Part shown: piece after piece, positions 23,825 through 63,479 of the stretch | Layout of the letters: each line of letters opens with the position of its first letter | Position numbering within the stretch: the stretch's first letter is position 1 | NCBI RefSeq assembly: GCF_963921235.1 | Contig: NC_086097.1 | Span: 67,210,001-67,274,000, forward strand | DNA length: 64,000 bases | Origin: Mobula hypostoma | Lineage: Eukaryota | Reading direction: 5' to 3' | Made by a program: the position numbers and the translations under genes | The notes under the pieces: generated by a model | The model's input: only the letters and a program-made list of their open reading frames with translations | The model's database searches: none | What the model was told of the DNA's origin: nothing

Positions 23825-24312
23825 CTTATGATGGTTACTTGTAGTGAAATACTGTGTGGTGTCTTTAAAGGCCTCTTATTATCAATTGTATTTTTTTTAA
23901 ACTGGTGTGTGTTCCAATTTAACATGTCCTTCAGGATATCTTGTGAAATACTGAAACAGGTACTTTGGCCCTTTTTATTTTATTTCCTAAATCTTCTGAC
24001 AATGCTGTAACCAGTAATATTATTCTGATGTTTTTGCTGAAGTAGAAACAGTTCCTTGCTTTCTCTGGTGTGAAAGTCAAGTAATTGGAAGTCCAAGTTC
24101 AAGCTCAAGCTCCCACTGTTCTTTACCGGAAATTTCCCTTTGCCTTGGCTGTTGGACTCTTCTTGAAATTTTGTGATGGAGTAAATTTGCCCTTTTGTAG
24201 AAAAGTTTTTCCCAATAATCCTGTTCTAGCTCGCCAGGGAGCTTGTTCGAAAAGGAAGAAGTGAAATAGTAATTTATTTTGTTTTTCCAGTGCTTTTGTT
24301 TTAATAGATTTA

Positions 24313-25603
24313 TTTTTAAAAAATTTTTATTTTTATTTGGATAAGGAATTCACAAGTATCGTACTTTTTTCACATGTATAACCTTTTCCATTTTTTTATA
24401 TGTATAAAACTATAATTATTTATACATTCCTAAGTACACATTAAGATGATATAAAAAGAAATTAAACACTTAAATAGATAATTATGTGCAGTTGAAATTC
24501 TAATCTATTAGGCTAAGTAATGATATTTAGTTGTTAAGAAAAATAGTAATAATAGTGGATTAATAATAATTTCCATATATCTCTTCTGGACCATTTCTTC
24601 TGGTCCAAAATGTTGTATGTAAGCCTATGTAACAACCATTGTAGGTGTTTATATTCTAACTTGTTCATGCTTGCTCCTGCCCCCAAACATAATTATCCAA
24701 TCCCTATGTACTTATTTACTTAATTTTATCATTTTTTTATCCCTTTCCCAAATCTTTTCCTTTACTTGTGTTAATTCTCTATTTTCCAAAAAAAAACAAA
24801 AGCAGTAAACATTTAGACCGGGGTGCTTACGTTAGCAATATTACTGTGTTGATGAGAAGAGCAGTATAAATCATTAGGTGAGTCATCTAAAATATGCTCG
24901 CTTTGGGGTTATATATTCAATCCATTTATTCCAGATTTGATAAAATTTTTCTTTTTGAATTCTCAGGGAGTAAGTCATCTTTTCCATTTTAAATATTTCC
25001 AAGATAATTTCGTGCCAATCTTCTAATGTAGGTGGTATTGGATTTAGCCACTTTCTAGTGATTGATTTCTTACTTGCCGCTAAAAGGGCCTGCAGCAACT
25101 TTATATCTTTCTTCTGTTCAAGAAACAATACATGCCCCAAATAGAGCATCTCAAAGTTCAGAGGTATCTGGGTCTTAAGTACCTTAATTAATGTTCTATG
25201 AATACCTTTCCAATATAAACTTAATTTAGGGCAATCCCAGAAAATATGGAAATGATTTGCCTCCTTGGAGCCGCACCTTCTCCAACACATCACATTTGTG
25301 TCTTTATATTTTTCCTGATATGGGGTCTTGAAGTATCTTACATTATTTTTCCAACAATGTTCTCTCCAAGTCAAAGAATTAGTCGAAGACCACTGAAAGC
25401 TGCATATTTTTTCCCCCAAGCCTCCTCTGAAAGTACCAACCCTGCTTCTTTCTCCCATTTCTCTTTAACATACAATGTGTTTACATTTTTAGCATGGGAG
25501 AGTGCATTATATAATCGAGAAACTGATTTACTGGGTATTGAACTGCAAGCCGAATTCAGAATCTTGAAAAATTCTAATTCTATTGTTGATCAGTCTGTAT
25601 ATG
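24313..25603 (-). mobile_element. 5'-truncated L1-clade LINE
   Basis: ORF2 C-terminal CCHC CWRRCGSKEANHFHIFWDC, A-rich tail, 16-bp TSD TGTTTTAATAGATTTA (24297-24312, 25604-25619). Confidence 0.92.
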
Positions 25604-50726: not shown

Positions 50727-50927
50727 TGTTACATTTGTGGTGCTGGGAAGCCGGATGGCTGTGAATGACTCACATGAGAGACAGAGAGGTGAGGCAGAAA
50801 CATGCAGCTGCTTATTTTGCTTGTAAGTCAGCTACCCAGATGCCTTCTCACGTTACATTCAGTATGTAACACACAGGGAAGCCTGACAGCAATCTGTAAG
50901 GGTCAAAATATACATGAATACATAACA
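50727..50927 (-). repeat. 3' LTR (201 bp)
   Basis: TGTTA...TAACA, adjacent to the PPT; aligns end to end with 56961-57161. Confidence 0.9.
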
Positions 50928-51249
50928 TATCCCCCCGCTTATCTTAAAGGTTTCTCACCTTCCCATACACAGTCCAGCTACTGAACTATTAACATTCAAT
51001 GGAGCACTCATTAAATTCAACAGGCAACAAAAGACATTTATATAAACTAGAGAAAGAGGCTAGAATGGCTCTATTTCCGGACATAACCCTAGGGATTATA
51101 ACCCATATGCTGAGGGTTAGTCACTAAACTAGACTGGAGGCCGCCTGTTCCTGTGAATGTACTAACAACCTGGGGATGTTGTGGAAGTCATTTTATTTCT
51201 TGGTGGTGTATGTATAGATCTGAACTTGGGTGTTGCATTGCCAGTAGGG

Positions 51250-52408
51250 GGCACCACCAGGTGATGGATGAATGGCCTTGCTGATTAAGGACTGGTGTGT
51301 GATGATTCTGACTGCCAAGCAGCTCACATAGACCATCTGGGGATGGAGGCCGCATTACAGGAGCAGTAGAATTTGAGAGGGTTTTGATTGCAAAGGCAAG
51401 GTGCCACTTTCCTTTATACTATTAAAAAGCTTATTGAAAGCAGTCATATCTGTGATTTTTTTTTGTATTTGTTTAGGACCGGATGATGCAGTTAGTCTGT
51501 TTCAGATGTTCCACCATGAACAGGGTGGCAAGCTTCCTCTCAGGTTTCATTTCGAGACCTTTCAGTTCTGCTTCCACCTCTTCCACAGACAAAACCACTC
51601 CGCCCATGAACTCCAGGTTCTTCTTGTTGGCAGTGAGACTGGACAGCAGTGTTTTCACACCACATTTCCCTTTCACAGTATTTCTAAACTATCAACCTTT
51701 TTATTAATCTCCTTATTATCTTCTCGTGCTGGAATGGAAACAAAAGTAGTTTCCAAGCTGTGAAACGAGAGTTGAGATCCTTTGGTCCAGACTAGCAAGT
51801 CTCTCAAGTTCTTCATGTAGGGTAGGCCGTAGGCTACTGGAGCGACAATCTGTAAGTTATTTGAAAGCCATTGACTGAACTGGCTGGATGACACTGATTC
51901 TTCACCAAGCACCTCATCAATCATCAGTGCTAGTCCAGGTACACTTGTTTCATGTTGAAGAACTCACTGGAATCAAGGTTCCCCAATGAGGGTTCAGTCA
52001 AGACTGCTTCTCATGGAACTTCTTGCTCAGCTTCTGATGCAGAAGCAGTAGGTATCTCTTCTTGGGCAGCACCATTGCATTCTACACCTTCTTTAAGGGT
52101 TTCTGATTGCTTCCTCCACCCCCTTGTCCATCTTGGATTCTCCAATAACACTTTATCAAAGCCTGTCAGCTTTACTGTTTCTGATTGACTAGTAGGGCCA
52201 GAGAAAACCATTGTGGTTCCTTTTCAGTATAGGAATCACATCGCCTCTGCTCACCAAAAATGTGTTTACCATCACCAAACTCTCTCCTAAAGCACTTTTC
52301 CTCGAAGTCTCATTTCCTTCCTTCTTGAGCATGTCTGTCACGCAAGTCTCTGTCTCTGCCATCACGATCAAAGGTTCTTGGTGTTCAAATTTTCCCACAA
52401 AGATTTTC
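51250..52408 (-). pseudogene. eif4enif1: Processed EIF4ENIF1 (4E-T) retrocopy, downstream part
   Basis: Collinear motifs across frameshifts: FRREFGDGKHIFGEQRRCDSYTEKEPQWFS/GPTSQSETVKLTGFDK, KEGVECNG, EQEVP, EFFNM..VPGLALMIDEVLGEESVSSSQFSQWLSN, HEELERLA, LLSSLTANK, GVVLSVEEVEAELKGL, FMVEHLKQT, DMTAFNKL..SGTLP. All match human 4E-T as recalled. The downstream boundary is approximate. Confidence 0.9.
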
Positions 52409-53898
52409 TTTTTCTTTTTTTTTAAATTTTATTTTTATTTGGATAAGGAATTCACAATTATCATGTACTTTTTTCACACATATAACCTTTTCCATTTTTT
52501 TATATGTATAAAACTACAATTATTTATACATTCTTAAGTACACATTGAGATGATATAAAAGGAAAATAAACATTTAAATAGATTAATTATGTACTGTGGT
52601 AAATCTAACCTATTAGGCTAAGTAATGAAATTAGTTGTTAAGAAAAATGGTAATAATAGTTTCCATACAACCCTTCTGGACCATTTCCACTGGTCCAAAA
52701 TGTTGCATACAAGCCTATATACCAACCATTGTAGGCGTTTATATCCCAATTTGTTCGTGCTTGTTCCTGCCCGCAGACATAATTATCCAATCCCTATGTA
52801 CTTATTTACTTAATTTCTTCATTTTTTTTTTATCCCTTTCCCAAATCTTTCCCTTTACTTGTGTTAATTCTCTATTTTACAAAAAAAAACAAACATTTAG
52901 ACTAGGGGTGCTTACGTTAGCAATATTACTGTGTTGATGAGAAGAGCAATATAAATCATTAGGAGAGTCATCTAAAGTCTGCTCGCATTGGGGTTATATA
53001 TTCAATCCATTTATTCCAGATTTGATAAAATGTTTCTTTTTGAGTTCTCAGGGAGTGTCAACTTTTCCACTTTAAATATTTCCAAGATAATTTCGTACCA
53101 ATCTTCTAATGTAGGTGGTATTGGATTTAGCCATTTTCTAGTGATTGATTTCTTACTTGCCGCTAAGAGGGCCTGCAGCAACTTTATATCTTTCTTCTGT
53201 TCAAGGAACAATACATGCCCCAAATAGAGCATCTCAAAGTTCAGAGGTATCTGGGACCTAAGTACCTTAACTAATATTCTATGAATACTTTCCCAAAATA
53301 GACTTAATTTAGGGCAATCCCAGAAAATATGAAAATGATTTGCCTCCTTGGAGCCGCACCTTCTCCAACACATCACGTTTGTATCTTTATATTTTTCCTG
53401 ATATGGGGTCTTGAAGTATCTTATAATGTTTTTCCAACAATGTTCTCTCTAAGTCAAAGAATTAGTCGAGGACCATTGAAAGCTGCAGACTTTCCCCCAA
53501 GCCTCCTCTGAAAGTACCAACCCCGCTTCTTTCTCCCACTTCTCTTTAATATACAGTGTATTTACATTTTTAGCATGGGAGAGTGCATTATATAGGCGAG
53601 AAACTGATTTACTAAGTATTGAACTGCAAGCCGAATTCAGAATCTTGAAAAATTCTAATTCTACTGTTGATAGGTCTGTATATCTACAACTCTGGTTAAC
53701 ATAGTTTCGTATTTGAAGGTACCTAAAAAAGTCATTATGTTCTAGGCCATGTTTGTCCTGCAGGATTTGGAAACTTTGTAATACTCTTTTATCTATAAAT
53801 GAGAGGTAGGTTGTAAGACCTTTCTTTATCCATAGCTCAAACCTTTTATCTCCTCTGTTGGGAAGGAATTCGGTATCATATGCACACCATCTAAAGAG
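52409..53898 (-). mobile_element. 5'-truncated L1-clade LINE inserted in the 4E-T retrocopy
   Basis: Same family as 24313-25603; poly(A) tail; 19-bp TSD TTTTCCCACAAAGATTTTC (52390-52408, 53899-53917). Confidence 0.93.
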
Positions 53899-54335
53899 TT
53901 TTCCCACAAAGATTTTCATTCTTTTTATTGTCCAATGGGCTTTCAGTTATTAACTATTGGAGGTGTTGGTCACATGATAGCCATCCCAAAGCCTTGGCGC
54001 TGAGGACTGAGTACAGCATCAAGATCTGCTTCCTTTATTCTCCCTTGTGGATCTGCAATTCTTTGCTGGAGAACTGCTCTCTCCAAATCTGAAGCATAGT
54101 CCTTCTTCGTTCTATCCAGTGACAAACTCCTGCCAGATAGAAAGGTGCATGTCAGTTTTCAGGGTCCCAGATGCCTTCACTGTCATACTTTCCCAAAAGA
54201 AATGCCAGTCTCTGCTTTACATATGGGTAACTCTTTGATTTCTAGCAGTTTTTCCTTGGAATATCTATGTGGTTTCTTCATGCCACACATTTTTATTGTA
54301 TTGTTTAATTGAACTTTTCTTTCAATCCATTCTTT
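53899..54335 (-). pseudogene. eif4enif1: Processed EIF4ENIF1 (4E-T) retrocopy, N-terminal part
   Basis: KKPHRYSKEKLLEIKELP (human PHRYTKEELLDIKELP, eIF4E-binding YxxxxLL at 54243-54263), KYDSEGIWDPE and IADPQGRIKEADLDAVLSPQRQGFG (human IVDPRERVKEDDLDVVLSPQRRSFG). Possible original ATG at 54330. Confidence 0.92.
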
Positions 54336-54829
54336 TTTATCTATGCCACACCGAGGTTCAACAGTACCTCTGTCACTCGGCTAACAACCCAGCCTTAACA
54401 GCCAGCTTAATAGTGACACTGCGCCATTCTCTGTAAAATACTTCTGCGTCTTTCTTCAGCAGCCCTTGGAGACCAGTGCACCCACCAATCAAATGTGCTT
54501 TGTGCCTTTTGAGTTTGAGCTGCTCCAACCACCAGTGGCCCAGAAGCGATGGATAACTATCTTTAACAACTACTGTTCATTAATCTCCACTGTGACATGT
54601 ACCACTCCCTTCACTGGAACAACCTCACCAGTGTAAGTCTTTAAAGTCAACCTTGTCCCTTCCGGGGTGAGATCTGCAATTTCTCCTTGTAAACTGTTTC
54701 TGACACCAGCGATACTGCAGCCCCCCGTGTCCACCTGCTACCACACTGTGGCTCCATCCAGCCACGGAGTCACCCAATAGCTACCTTTATATCCTGAAAC
54801 AGATAAACATACAACACTTATATGGTTAA

Positions 54830-56172
54830 CAACAGGAATTCTGCAGATGCTGGAAATTCAAGCAACACACATCAAAGTTGCTGGTGAACGCAGCAGGCCA
54901 AGCAGCATCTGTAGGAAGAGGTGCAGTCGACGTTTCAGGCCGAGACCCTTCGTCAGGACTAACTGAAGGAAGAGTGAGTAAGGGATTTGAAAGTTGGAGG
55001 GGGAGGGGGAGATCCAAAATGATAGGAGAAAACAGGAGGGGGAGGGATAGAGCCAAGAGCTGGACAGGTGATAGGCAAAAGGGGATACGAGAGGATCATG
55101 GGACAGGAGGTCCGGGAAGAAAGACAAGGGGGGGGGGAGGTGACCCAGAGGATGGGCAAGAGGTATATTCAGAGGGACAGAGGGAGAAAAAGGAGAGTGA
55201 GAGAAAGAATGTGTGCATAAAAATAAGTAACAGATGGGGTACGAGGGGGAGGTGGGGCCTAGCGGAAGTTAGAGAAGTCGATGTTCATACCATCAGGTTG
55301 GAGGCTACCCAGACGGAATACAAGGTGTTGTTCCTCCAACCTGAGTGTGGCTTCATCTTTACAGTAGAGGAGGCCGTGGATAGACATGTCAGAATGGGAA
55401 TGGGATGTGGAATTAAAATGTGTGGCCACTGGGAGATCCTGCTTTCTCTGGCGGACAGAGCATAGATGTTCAGCAAAGCGGTCTCCCAGTCTGCGTCGGG
55501 TCTCGCCAATATATAAAAGGCCACATCGGGAGCACTGGATGCAGTATATCACCCCAGTCGACTCACAGGTGAAGTGTTGCCTCACCTGGAAGGACTGTTT
55601 GGGGCCCTGAATGGTGGTAAGGGAGGAAGTGTAAGGGCATGTGTAGCACTTGTTCCGCTTACACGGATAAGTGCCAGGAGGGAGATCAGTGGGGAGGGAT
55701 GGGGGGTACGAATGGACAAGGGAGTTGTGTAGGGAGCGATCCCTACGGAATGCAGAGAGAGGGGGGGAGGGAAAGATGTGCTTAGTGGTGGAATCCCGTT
55801 GGAGGTGGCGGAAGTTACGGAGAATAATATGTTGGACCCGGAGGCTGGTGGGGTGGTAGGTGAGGACCAGGGGAACCCTATTCCTAGTGGGGTGGTGGGA
55901 GGATGGAGTGAGAGCAGATGTACGTGAAATGGGGGAGATGTGTTTAAGAGCAGAGTTGATAGTGGAGGAAGGGAAGCCCCTTTCTTTAAAGAAGGAAGAC
56001 ATCTCCCTCGTCCTAGAATGAAAAGCCTCATCCTGAGAGCAGATGCGGCGGAGACGGAGGAATTGCGAGAAGGGGATGGCGTTTTTGCAAGAGACAGGGT
56101 GAGAAGAGGAATAGTCCAGATAGCTGTGAGAGTCAGTAGGCTTATAGTAGACATCAGTGGATAAGCTGTCTC
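54830..56172 (-). mobile_element. Young 5'-truncated Penelope-like element inserted between gag and protease
   Basis: Uninterrupted frame 56170-55259: DVYYKPTDSHSYLDYSSSHP...IPFSQFLRLRRICS, CKRNKCYTC linker, GVIYCIQCSRCGLLYIGET (GIY-YIG). Pseudo-LTR with a hammerhead. Confidence 0.95.
54925..54960 (-). ncRNA. Minimal type I hammerhead ribozyme (Penelope pseudo-LTR)
   Basis: AGTC-CTGACGA-AGGgtctcggCCT-GAAA-CG-TC/GACT on the minus strand. Confidence 0.8.
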
Positions 56173-56960
56173 TTATATGTCACTTATATGGTTATATGGT
56201 TAACACTTCTTCAGCCACAGAGTGAAAATCACTCAGTATGTGCCACCTTGTTCACATTTCTACTTGTTTTTCCAAAAGTCATTTTTCTGTATTACAGTGT
56301 TATTGGTTGACAGTGTCTTTTTACTTCTACAGGCACGTTCAATATGCCACAGCTTCAGCAATCTAGATCCTTATACCAGCATTCTTTTGCTGAATGCCCA
56401 GTTTTTCCACAATGGTAACATTGATTGCCAATAGGTGTCTTATTCTTAAAGTCTGTCAAAACTTTATGTACGTAGAAAGATGCACTTAATAGCCGTGATT
56501 CTTTAGCCACTCTCTCCGTAGGTGTACAGTACTAATCTCAATTGCCTTCTGGAATGTTAGTCTGCCTTTTCAGTCTTCCACTAGACTGAGTAATAATTAA
56601 ACATTTTTGCACCCAACACAGTCAGAAGAGTTGGAACACGATATTTGCCAGTGCAAAATATTCAAATCTTTCAGTCCATTGCTCTGTCGTTTCGTCATAC
56701 GGACCTATACATACAAACATTGTTGCATTTTCAGACAGAGTCACGTTGCAGAAAAGTTAACTAGTCTTACCCATCTCTCTCTCCCTCCCTCCCTCTCCTA
56801 TTTGTTTTGATTAACTGTCCGGTTCTCGTTCTCTGCCCTCATATTCTTCACTCACCACGCTTCCTGCGGCTGTCTTTCTCATGGCGTGCACACGAACCTG
56901 TCTTGCTTAAGGGAACAAAACAATAAATATCGTGTGAGGAATCATCACCTCGTCACCAGC

Positions 56961-57161
56961 TGTTATGCCTGTAGTATTGGGAAGCCGGGTGGCCGTGAAT
57001 TACAGACGAGAGGCGGGAAAGCCGAGGTACAAATGTGTTGCTGTTTACTTTACCTGTAAGTCATCTACCCAGAATGCCCTCTCACATTACGTTCAGCACG
57101 TAACACACAGGGAAGCCTGACGGCGATCCGTAAGGGTCAAAATAAACACGAGTACATAATG
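56961..57161 (-). repeat. 5' LTR (201 bp), CpG-retaining
   Basis: Aligns with 50727-50927; adjacent PBS-like site at ~56940-56958. Confidence 0.88.
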
Positions 57162-61140: not shown

Positions 61141-61518
61141 CATCTGTAGGTATTAGCTTCAACTCAGTGACGTGAGCTAAATAGAGAATTGGAGCATGAA
61201 TCCCAGCCCCAAAACATAGGAAAAACCTTCAATGTGAGGTAATGGATGTGTGTACACCATACAAACAGAGTTAAGGACTTGCATATGCCACCTCTTGAAA
61301 AGTCGGAAAATTTAAATTTTTTCACACACTCTGTAATTCTTAATGTTTGGGCCTGTAATAGTTTTGTGAAGTGATGCTTAAAATTTATACAAATAATATT
61401 AGTGCAATGTTAATAAAGAACTGGTCAACAATACTGAACACAGCTTTGACATTAAAAAACATACATCAAAGTTGCTGGTGAACGCAGCAGGCCAAGCAGC
61501 ATCTATAGGAAGAGGCGC

Positions 61519-61554
61519 AGTCGACGTTTCAGGCCGAGACCCTTCGTCAGGACT
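61519..61554 (-). ncRNA. Minimal type I hammerhead ribozyme (mirror copy)
   Basis: Exact reverse complement of 61571-61606. Confidence 0.8.
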
Positions 61555-61570
61555 AGTCCTAGTCCTGACT

Positions 61571-61606
61571 AGTCCTGACGAAGGGTCTCGGCCTGAAACG
61601 TCGACT
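61571..61606 (+). ncRNA. Minimal type I hammerhead ribozyme
   Basis: AGTC CTGACGA AGG-GTCTCGG-CCT GAAA CG TC^GACT; predicted cleavage after C61602. Confidence 0.8.
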
Positions 61607-63479
61607 GCGCCTCTTCCTATAGATGCTGCTTGGCCTGCTGCGTTCACCAGCAACTTTGATGTATGTTGCTTGAATTTCCAGCATCTGCAGAATTCCTGTT
61701 GTTTGACATTAAAAATCCGCTTTTGTGTTAGCAGCAAGTTGTTACTATCTGCTAACAGTAGATGGCAGTGTTAACCTTTGAATTCAGTGCAGGCATTTAG
61801 CTCTGAAGTTCAAGGCGATTAATACAGGTGACATTCAGCTATAACAAACCTCATTTACATAAATAGCTTGATGTGCAAGGAACAGGCTACAAAATTGTTT
61901 TGTTATTTTCTTGTAATGGATTGACTTGTTTTGTGTTTGCCCAAGTGGTGCTTTATTTTAGTAATAGAGGCTAATGTTAAGATAATTAAGACTCTGCTTG
62001 CATGTGTGGTGGTTGCTGTTCATGGATCAATTCTTTATCCAGCTTGACCACTGTTTCTATGGCAAGCCTATGGCCAAGTCTTGCTCTTAGACTTCCTTCA
62101 CAGTGGACCTGCCAAGTCCTTGAATGACCTTGGGACCAGCTTCAGCCTTGAAAACCGTCTGTGGTCTAGTGCTGCACCACGCATTGCAAACCCCCAACTT
62201 CCCCAGCATAGTTCATGTGTAAATGGGTCTTTTATGAAGTACTTTATGAGTATTTGGAGCCGCTGTGCCTTTTTATATTTACTATAATAGATAGCAATTT
62301 AAAGATTGAATAATAGGGATAAAATGAGTGGCTTTGTACTAAAGCCTGCTGCACATTCTTGTGTTCTTTCATAGTTAATTCCACTGCATGACATGATTAC
62401 TTTTTATTCATGGTGCTCACGGGCCTAGCACCAAAAACATCCTGATCAGAGACTAAAAGCCTTTTTGGGTTGTTTCCTGGTCTCCTCCACCTGAACACAC
62501 TGGTGGCCTGGCAGCAAGGTGTGGCTGCTATCATTTCCTCTATCCCTCAGGGGCTATCAACGCATTAATGTAACATAACTTTTGCAGCATATCACATGAG
62601 AACGTTGACCCTTGAGTAATTCAGTGGCATAACTATTAATCAGATTCTGTATTTGGGCAAGTTATTTAATATCTGATCCAAGTATTATCTATAATACAAC
62701 TTTATGTATGTCAATTGATCATAATTACAAGATCAATATGGATATAAAGGTGATTCATAAAATCTTTAAAAGACATTCTCTATTAAACTAGCATGTGACT
62801 TGTAAAATAAGCTCTTGGTGAAAGCACATTTTTTAAAAATGGCTATAACTTCCACTTGCCTGAGTTTAATTAGTAAGCATTACTACCAGCTTGAAACCCT
62901 TCAAAGGTTTTTAATATATTTAGTAGTTAAGAGAAATTAAAATTTATGTTGATATATGGTGTTATCATCAAATGCATAATGTGGGAGTGAGTAATATGAA
63001 GCTTAAAATAGTAAAAATGTATCTTCTTATTTATACTGTAAAGCTTTCCAACTAGTGGACTTAATGAGAAATGGAAATGGTACATGCATGACTGGCCAGC
63101 TGGAATGAGTAAATTAGGATTTGCATTATTACAGTAAACAAATAGGCTCTAATTTCAGGAACAGCTTCACAAGTGTTGCAAGCCTAATTATTGAAACACA
63201 TCAGTCAGGTTTCAATCCGCTGAGCAGAATTTTAACAGGGTTGCATATGATAAATCTAAGCTCCTGTAAAGATGACAACATCCTCTTTCCACAGAGATGA
63301 AAGATCCGGGAGTGTTTGCCACCAGAACTTCTTAAAAATATGTTAGAGACAACATGGTGTTATCTTGATGAAGGCCCAGGTTAGATTTTCATTCGGTACT
63401 GAGTTAATCAATCTTTCTCTGGAAATAGAAGATTTGGAGAGTTTGTTTAGTTCTGCTGTCTAGTAATTCCACATATGAT

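What the first reader, a model, noticed from the sequence alone, without database searches (positions are those of the whole stretch)
51250..54335. Captured 4E-T fragment spans the eIF4E-binding and DDX6-binding modules
Seen: YSKEKLL (54243-54263), VLSPQRQGFG, basic FRREF region, EKEPQWFS/GPTSQSETVKLTGF (~52158-52225), SQFSQWLS and DMTAFNKL (51427-51450). Similarity fades near 51250, with no 4E-T C-terminus and no poly(A) seen. Established: YxxxxLL binds eIF4E and the CUP-homology domain (EEEPEWFSAGPTSQSETIELTGF in human) binds DDX6. Ty1/Ty3 particle assembly in yeast depends on P-body factors including the DDX6 orthologue Dhh1. Speculation: an ancestral intact version could have helped move element RNA from translation to packaging granules, or acted as a dominant-negative. 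Alternatively, co-localisation of the mRNA with particles merely favoured a neutral capture.
Basis: partly seen in the sequence, partly recalled or inferred. Interest (0 to 1): 0.7.

Follow-up and report, generated by a model that had tools for sequence, protein, structure and literature searches.

The report
Gypsy family carrying captured 4E-T mRNA
This is one broken copy of an old jumping-gene family in a ray-like genome that carries the spliced front half of the host translation-repressor gene 4E-T in place of its own copying enzymes and sits at dozens of places, likely spread by enzymes borrowed from complete relatives, with no sign that the cargo itself was ever selected.

Summary
The capture is real; the proposed function is unsupported. 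The window holds a decayed Gypsy LTR element (50727-57161, minus) whose RT, RNase H and integrase are replaced by an intronless copy of host EIF4ENIF1 (a 5'UTR exon piece plus codons 1-544 of about 953). At least 46 such loci exist; 20 of 20 sampled siblings with the same LTR-gag-protease shell keep pol. Across copies the cargo is joined in frame to gag-protease (51-nt linker in 16 of 27) and open through the eIF4E and DDX6 motifs, but one frameshift near codon 477 is shared. Copies form a star, decay neutrally (K0/K4 1.09-1.14), and differ from siblings at 0 of 1113 gag-protease sites, so capture and spread fell in one burst and selection on the cargo is undetectable. An unrelated Gypsy family here carries SUDS3, also in frame (12 of 13), suggesting an open frame, not 4E-T activity, is what mattered. 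The scan had noted the SUDS3 and myosin captures on other DNA of this genome, not 4E-T elsewhere. This fits LTR-mediated retroposition (Tan 2016). Side finding: this copy is transcribed and spliced.

The parts
56961..57161 (-). 5' LTR (~200 bp)
   Evidence: 80% identical to 50736-50925; K2P 0.22 between the two LTRs
56948..56958 (-). primer-binding-site-like motif right after the 5' LTR
   Evidence: same motif follows the 5' LTR in most copies and siblings; role as PBS recalled, no tRNA match tested
56850..56857 (-). splice donor in the leader, used in RNA from this copy
   Evidence: loose ends of RNA contigs match 56856-56885; GT kept in 21 of 25 copies and 10 of 13 siblings
56200..56720 (-). 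decayed gag with two zinc knuckles (about 250 bp deleted near 56570)
   Evidence: matches residues 1-~250 of single-ORF Gypsy polyproteins P0123-P0126 across copies
54825..56195 (-). later Penelope-like insert (GIY-YIG), not part of the family
   Evidence: Pfam GIY-YIG E 7e-5 on ORF 55259-56179; absent at this place in other copies
54394..54814 (-). protease and the first ~20 codons of reverse transcriptase
   Evidence: aligned to P0123 residues ~285-428; catalytic Asp kept in 19 of 19 copies aligned there
54345..54393 (-). linker derived from the host 4E-T 5'UTR exon; 5' switch point at its start
   Evidence: matches host locus ~680 bp upstream of the first coding exon in 19 of 22 copies tested; 51 nt in 16 of 27 copies, 49 nt here
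53912..54344 (-). 4E-T retrocopy, codons 1-~146, incl. eIF4E-binding motif YSKEKLL (54263-54243)
   Evidence: 79-88% identity to host coding exons 1-4
52391..53917 (-). later 5'-truncated non-LTR (L1/Tx1-like, label recalled) insert with A-rich tail and 18-bp target-site duplication (53917-53900, 52408-52391)
   Evidence: second copy at window 24309-25602, 90% identical; no Pfam family on its ORFs
51266..52385 (-). 4E-T retrocopy, codons ~162-544, incl. CUP-homology domain (52225-52158)
   Evidence: 84-90% identity to host coding exons 4-10; domain matches the 4E-T peptide of PDB 5anr via the stingray orthologue
50946..51265 (-). 3' switch point and tail: end of the integrase region and 3' untranslated part, shared with pol-bearing siblings
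50930..50945 (-). polypurine tract
   Evidence: purine run before the 3' LTR in most copies
50727..50927 (-). 3' LTR, TG...CA
   Evidence: contiguous with the same unique flank in three other organisms

Best explanation
This is a decayed copy of a non-autonomous Gypsy family whose RT-RNase H-integrase region is replaced by spliced host 4E-T mRNA, likely through two template switches inside a particle, and which was then likely copied to dozens of sites by the enzymes of its pol-bearing siblings in the same burst, the cargo likely riding along as a passenger. Shown: the anatomy, the intron loss, the replaced pol, the short shared sequence at the 3' junction, separate integration sites, the in-frame 5' join as the commonest state, one shared frameshift near codon 477, neutral decay. 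Inferred: co-packaging of the host mRNA and template switching; mobilisation in trans; that the active element made a Gag-protease-4E-T(1-~477) polyprotein; and that what favoured its spread was a kept, translatable gag frame acting in cis (as reported for mouse IAP 1-delta-1) rather than 4E-T activity.
For: Intronless copy of 11 host exons, 9 of 9 coding junctions crossed in 28-34 copies each with no insertion over 6 nt. Siblings with the same LTR, gag, protease and tail keep pol: 20 of 20 fetched (one with only 44 of 791 residues covered). 7-nt sequence shared by host mRNA and pol at the 3' switch. 5-bp target-site duplications, exact or one mismatch, read by eye in 9 of 20 two-LTR elements. 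Same age: LTR-LTR K2P median 0.238 (n=12) against 0.230 in siblings (n=8); gag-protease distance copy-sibling 0.249 against copy-copy 0.250, 0 of 1113 sites diagnostic. Star tree: tips 0.114, internal branches 0.003. Tip K0/K4 1.14 (1.03-1.28), 1.09 (0.98-1.22) without CpG; motifs no better kept than the rest. Only 2 of 441 conserved codons changed on the element side outside CpG. An unrelated Gypsy lineage carries SUDS3 in frame with protease in 12 of 13 loci with 331 first-look candidates. Tan et al. 2016 describe this structure and further cycles; cis action of a gag-pol fusion is stated in PMC6466679.
Against: One capture reached about a fifth of the family (8 of 40 scored protease hits; 69 against 296 first-look candidates), which a helpful cargo could also explain. 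The host-to-hub branch has K0/K4 0.19-0.20; I assign its synonymous changes to the host lineage because hub K4 equals tip K4 (-0.008, -0.043 to 0.032), but with no outgroup DNA a slower host synonymous rate, and so hidden purifying selection on the stem, is not excluded. The 5' switch shows only about 1 nt of shared sequence. A cruder first measure of the 5' frame gave 9 of 19 in frame. The cis-translation rule rests on two captures, and the SUDS3 loci were partly picked for long open frames.
Confidence: 0.78

Rival explanations
1. The cargo helped the element: a Gag-protease-4E-T(1-~477) product, or the fragment released by the protease, bound eIF4E and DDX6, silenced and protected the element RNA or dispersed P-bodies, and so raised the element's copy number.
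For: In-frame join (16 of 27); 78 of 80 windows of the cargo have an in-frame commonest state; the shared break lies downstream of the eIF4E, UNR and DDX6 motifs (motif map: PMC5291280, PMC7263148); human 4E-T 1-694 represses tethered mRNA and removes P-bodies in 59% of cells (PMC3950672); Ty3 needs Dhh1/DDX6 (PMC4589538 abstract); about a fifth of the family carries it.
Against: No measurable stem on which selection could show; neutral tips; motifs not better kept (4E motif 0.093, CHD 0.110, all 0.112); a shared frameshift; the P-body-targeting C-terminus is missing; an unrelated cargo, SUDS3, has the same layout and more candidates.
Confidence: 0.13
2. Whatever its origin, the window copy now serves the host as an LTR-driven spliced non-coding RNA related to 4E-T mRNA.
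For: Contigs identical to this copy in 3 of 3 RNA-labelled runs laid (one study), with GT-AG joins from the leader donor to 54130 or 54794; the insertion is shared with three other organisms up to 7% diverged.
Against: The copy is as diverged from the host gene as its fellows (88% against 82-88%); spliced forms give a 12-codon first frame; the donor and acceptors are family-wide leftovers; no host gene was recognised in the window (0 of 16 ORFs hit Pfam).
Confidence: 0.06
3. It is an ordinary LINE-made processed pseudogene that landed in a Gypsy element and was multiplied by segmental duplication.
For: A bioRxiv survey credits non-LTR elements with retrocopies in non-mammalian vertebrates (10.64898/2026.06.26.734816, passages); LINE-like inserts are common here.
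Against: No poly(A) or target-site duplication around the cargo; pol is replaced, not interrupted; flanks differ among copies and carry their own 5-bp duplications.
Confidence: 0.02

Closest known systems
LTR-mediated retrocopies of animals (Tan et al. 2016, PMC5131818; 12 passages and section 5 read)
   Same: Partial, 3'-truncated, intronless mRNA replaces part of the internal ORF between two LTRs; short shared sequence at a switch point; no poly(A); further cycles as a non-autonomous element.
   Different: Their re-amplified cases have a few insertion sites (18 sites for nine retrocopies); here one capture gave at least 46 loci, kept gag and protease, and is joined in frame. Cartilaginous fishes were not among the species named in what I read.
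Mouse IAP 1-delta-1 non-autonomous proviruses (PMC6466679, 3 passages read; the primary paper was not held)
   Same: Needs pol in trans, keeps a translatable gag fusion reported to act in cis, and makes up a large share of insertions.
   Different: IAP is a retrovirus-derived element and its fusion partner is its own pol remnant, not a host gene.
Single-ORF Gypsy elements with K02A2.6-like polyproteins (P0121-P0126; 'Mag clade' label recalled)
   Same: ~200-bp LTRs, two zinc knuckles, gag-protease-RT-RNase H-integrase in one frame in relatives, 5-bp target duplication.
   Different: RT, RNase H and nearly all integrase are missing in the 4E-T subfamily.
SUDS3-carrying Gypsy family of the same genome (earlier scan notes; partly tested here)
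   Same: Host mRNA replaces pol just after protease, in frame in 12 of 13 loci.
   Different: Different Gypsy lineage (no DNA match to this element), different cargo, younger-looking LTR pairs in the three loci seen (79-91%).
Maize Bs1 and human HERV-K/FAM8A1 captures (named in PMC5131818 passages)
   Same: LTR element carrying host mRNA sequence.
   Different: Plant element, or a single untranscribed human copy; not examined further.

Membership tests
LTR-mediated retrocopy (Tan 2016) | Intronless copy of a host mRNA | tested here: met
   9 of 9 coding junctions plus the 5'UTR junction
LTR-mediated retrocopy (Tan 2016) | Replaces part of the internal ORF between two LTRs | tested here: met
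   RT-RNase H-integrase present in 20 of 20 siblings; 37 of 41 cargo loci have no pol match, and the 4 that do match only distantly (25-40% aa) and show no DNA match to the sibling's pol, i.e. other nested elements
LTR-mediated retrocopy (Tan 2016) | Microsimilarity at both switch points | tested here: inconclusive
   7 nt at the 3' switch; about 1 nt at the 5' switch; no chance model run
LTR-mediated retrocopy (Tan 2016) | No poly(A) or LINE-type target duplication at the cargo | tested here: met
   junction alignments
Non-autonomous LTR element | Dispersed copies with shared junctions and separate integrase-type target duplications | tested here: met
   at least 46 loci; 5-bp duplications in 6 of 12 two-LTR copies
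Non-autonomous LTR element | Mobilised in trans by a complete partner | not testable with these tools
   inferred from same-age pol-bearing siblings
Ty3/Gypsy | Domain order protease-RT-RNase H-integrase | tested here: met
   siblings cover single-ORF polyproteins of that order
Functional 4E-T retrogene | Open reading frame under purifying selection | tested here: not met
   at least 4 frameshifts in each of 34 long copies; tip K0/K4 above or near 1
Functional 4E-T retrogene | C-terminal P-body-targeting, PatL1 and second LSM14A sites | tested here: not met
   aa ~563-953 absent; site map from PMC3950672 and PMC7263148
Functional 4E-T retrogene | Binds eIF4E and DDX6 | not testable with these tools
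   motifs present in most copies; no binding test

The most novel reading that the evidence does not exclude
A vertebrate Gypsy element briefly used a captured, in-frame 4E-T fragment (eIF4E, UNR and DDX6 motifs, no P-body anchor) as part of its Gag-protease polyprotein, a built-in translational repressor and P-body antagonist that let one capture reach a fifth of its family; ray Gypsy elements would be repeat samplers of host regulators as Gag-protease fusions.
Probability: 0.13. Interest if true: 0.75.

Novelty: new member of a known kind. Interest (0 to 1): 0.4.

Why it matters
It is a well-dated, high-copy vertebrate case of LTR-mediated gene capture. Dozens of apparent 4E-T pseudogenes come from one capture, not from many LINE events, which bears on surveys that count retrocopies per parent gene in cartilaginous fishes and credit them to LINEs. 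Two independent captures joined in frame to gag-protease make a testable rule: only captures that keep a translatable gag frame get amplified. If the cargo did act on eIF4E or DDX6 it would be a retrotransposon borrowing a host repressor, but the sequences do not show that.

Tried and rejected
Shared-indel clustering by position found no majority frameshift and was wrong at one place: net-length scans showed the shared break near codon 477, so my early reading of a frame open to the 3' junction (first stop at the 7th codon after codon 542 in 10 of 25) was dropped. Recurrent stops at ten CGA codons (up to 17 of 30 copies) looked shared but are CpG decay: both strand products occur and 0 of 45 site pairs are associated at p<0.05. 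Other cargos in the same shell: none in 20 of 32 non-4E-T protease hits fetched. Pol-bearing 4E-T intermediates: the 4 loci with pol matches hold other nested elements. An intact or domesticated copy: none among 41 examined; unscored candidates were not seen. Lower second-position divergence in gag-protease was not used, as the alignment filter biases it. The myosin-carrying locus gave no match to my Gypsy reference and was not followed. Pfam found no 4E-T or protease family on the short window fragments. The run search listed no RNA holder; RNA evidence comes from same-label runs laid afterwards. Literature: no report of 4E-T capture in the listings of five searches; zero mentions of EIF4ENIF1 in the main text of two relevant preprints, whose supplements I did not see and which may list it; repeat libraries such as Repbase or Dfam could not be searched.

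Full report
Observation. The intact parent gene is at G000:C71, 60.04-60.09 Mb: 17 coding exons matching a stingray 4E-T over its whole length, 98.9% identical over the first 543 residues, with GT-AG borders at the nine exons checked. The host is therefore ray-like (inferred). The window copy matches ten coding exons at 79-90% and crosses all nine junctions without intron. It has 13 frameshifts and 4 stops, and it ends at host base ~1631 with nothing of the last seven exons.

Anatomy. The fragment lies in an LTR element, 57161-50727: 200-bp LTRs, a primer-site-like motif, decayed gag and protease matching single-ORF Gypsy polyproteins P0123-P0126, the cargo, a tail, a purine tract. Two later inserts are private to this copy: a Penelope-like element (GIY-YIG) and a non-LTR 3' end with an 18-bp target duplication. 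Without them and the private deletions the element is about 3.6 kb (L047 3659, L049 3610).

Family. A DNA search scored 40 of 69 candidates and a Pfam search 67 of 99; merged by hand they give at least 46 loci besides the host gene. I examined 41 (window plus 40 fetched). A protease query had 267 candidates; 8 of the 40 scored carry 4E-T. Of the other 32 I fetched 20, and all have the same LTR, gag and protease followed by RT-RNase H-integrase; a pol query had 296 candidates. So about a fifth of the family carries the cargo. 5-bp target duplications in 9 of 20 two-LTR elements (by eye, at most one mismatch) show separate integrations.

Junctions. At the 5' side the element leaves pol about 20 codons into RT and enters a host 5'UTR exon lying ~680 bp upstream of the first coding exon; only about one base is shared. 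At the 3' side it returns to the end of the integrase region at a 7-nt sequence present in both host mRNA and siblings. There is no poly(A). This is the structure that Tan et al. 2016 ascribe to double template switching (PMC5131818; passages and section 5). The switching itself is inferred.

Frame. Through gag and protease the commonest state is in frame in 28 of 28 consecutive block pairs, thinly in the acidic linker (4 against 2 in the weakest; 7 of 15 over the long span). The linker to the 4E-T start is 51 nt in 16 of 27 copies, with no stop shared by most; a cruder measure spanning an A-run gave 9 of 19. In the cargo 78 of 80 windows have an in-frame commonest state; the two exceptions cover an A-run near codon 477, where only 6 of 29 and 7 of 30 copies are in frame (3 of 26 by anchors). 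I read this as one shared frameshift, with a stop near codon 486 kept in 28 of 32 copies. One search had missed it. So the active element likely encoded Gag-protease-linker-4E-T(1-~477): eIF4E, UNR and DDX6 motifs in frame (map from PMC5291280 and PMC7263148, passages; CHD also by PDB 5anr), DMTAFNKL out of frame, the C-terminal P-body signals absent.

Selection and age. On 34 copies with over 900 aligned bases (7 shorter ones left out), the tips have K0 0.120 and K4 0.105, ratio 1.14 (1.03-1.28); without CpG 1.09 (0.98-1.22); the motifs are no better kept. Recurrent CGA stops are independent CpG decay. The tree is a star. Host-to-hub K0 is 0.019 and K4 0.097; the low ratio is what the host's own purifying selection gives: most of the 13 shared non-degenerate differences lie where the host departs from outgroups, and only 2 of 441 conserved codons changed on the element side outside CpG. 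Hub K4 minus tip K4 is -0.008 (-0.043 to 0.032), and gag-protease separates cargo copies from siblings at 0 of 1113 sites. Capture and spread thus fell in one burst, leaving no branch on which selection could show; without outgroup DNA a little hidden selection is not excluded. Copies carry 17 of 17 batoid-wide derived residues and 7 of 10 that host and stingray share against the electric ray, but not the other 3 (2 of 4 sites of another class disagree): capture likely fell on the stingray stem, before the split from Hemitrygon. LTR pairs differ by K2P 0.24 (n=12; siblings 0.23, n=8). The same insertion, flank joined to LTR, is in three of four other-organism runs laid, 1-7% diverged; the fourth had flank and LTR on separate contigs.

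Mechanism. Most likely (0.78): co-packaged 4E-T mRNA was captured by two switches, and the chimera, keeping LTRs, primer site, purine tract and a translatable gag frame, was copied in trans. Mouse IAP 1-delta-1 offers a precedent for a gag fusion acting in cis (PMC6466679, passage; primary paper not held). A second, unrelated Gypsy lineage in this genome, known to me from earlier scan notes, carries SUDS3 in frame after protease in 12 of 13 loci (ten loci were picked mostly for long open frames) and has more candidates (331); this suggests frame, not cargo identity, matters, on n=2. The rival (0.13) is a useful cargo: human 4E-T 1-694 represses tethered mRNA and removes P-bodies in 59% of cells but is itself dispersed (PMC3950672, passages), and Ty3 needs Dhh1 (PMC4589538, abstract).

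Today. No copy of 41 is intact. The window copy is transcribed and spliced in 3 of 3 RNA-labelled runs laid, all of one study, from a family-wide donor to family-wide acceptors; the spliced forms begin with a 12-codon frame. Contigs give no level or start.

Novelty. A new member of a known kind. Five paper searches (listings only) and two preprints (passages, supplements unseen) showed no report of this capture; repeat libraries could not be searched. The scan's notes hold SUDS3 and myosin captures in this genome and this same stretch, but no other 4E-T case. The clade name Mag, the L1/Tx1 label and the primer-site role are recalled. Interest 0.4.

Noticed in passing
window 56856-53950 (minus): This copy is transcribed in the sense direction and spliced: identical contigs in 3 of 3 RNA-labelled runs of one study, with GT-AG joins from the leader donor (~56855) to 54130 and 54794 and a further intron 54628-54130. 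Loose ends of 198 and 199 nt in two runs would, if colinear, start inside the 5' LTR near 57053 (inferred).
   Followed up: partly
window 56855 and 54794; L083-L102: A leader splice donor and an acceptor at the start of protease are family-wide (acceptor AG in 19 of 19 siblings, 21 of 26 copies), hinting at a spliced gag-less RNA in the complete element; alignment bias may inflate the counts.
   Followed up: partly
L037, L089, L090 (all on G000:C91, 34-37 Mb): One 4E-T copy and two pol-bearing siblings group with full support in the gag-protease tree, and L089/L090 are 96% alike over 1.6 kb: likely gene conversion between neighbours.
   Followed up: no
L103, L104, L106-L116: An unrelated Gypsy family carrying SUDS3 in frame after protease (12 of 13 loci; 331 first-look candidates). 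SUDS3 is named among top retrocopy parents of cartilaginous fishes in a preprint that credits non-LTR elements.
   Followed up: partly
window 55259-56179 (minus): Penelope-like insert with a 306-codon open frame and GIY-YIG hit; a 97%-identical copy lies in L045, so a much younger family.
   Followed up: no
window 24309-25602 and 52415-53683: Two 90%-identical 3' ends of a non-LTR element within one window.
   Followed up: no
window 61458-61667: Perfect 101-nt inverted repeat with 8 nt between arms, made of two head-to-head copies of the end of the Penelope-like repeat.
   Followed up: no
L048: A 4E-T copy whose 3' half, with its LTR, is inverted relative to the 5' half.
   Followed up: no
G000:C137:213096 and C163:238256: Two hits of equal extent and score on small contigs, probably one locus assembled twice.
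   Followed up: no
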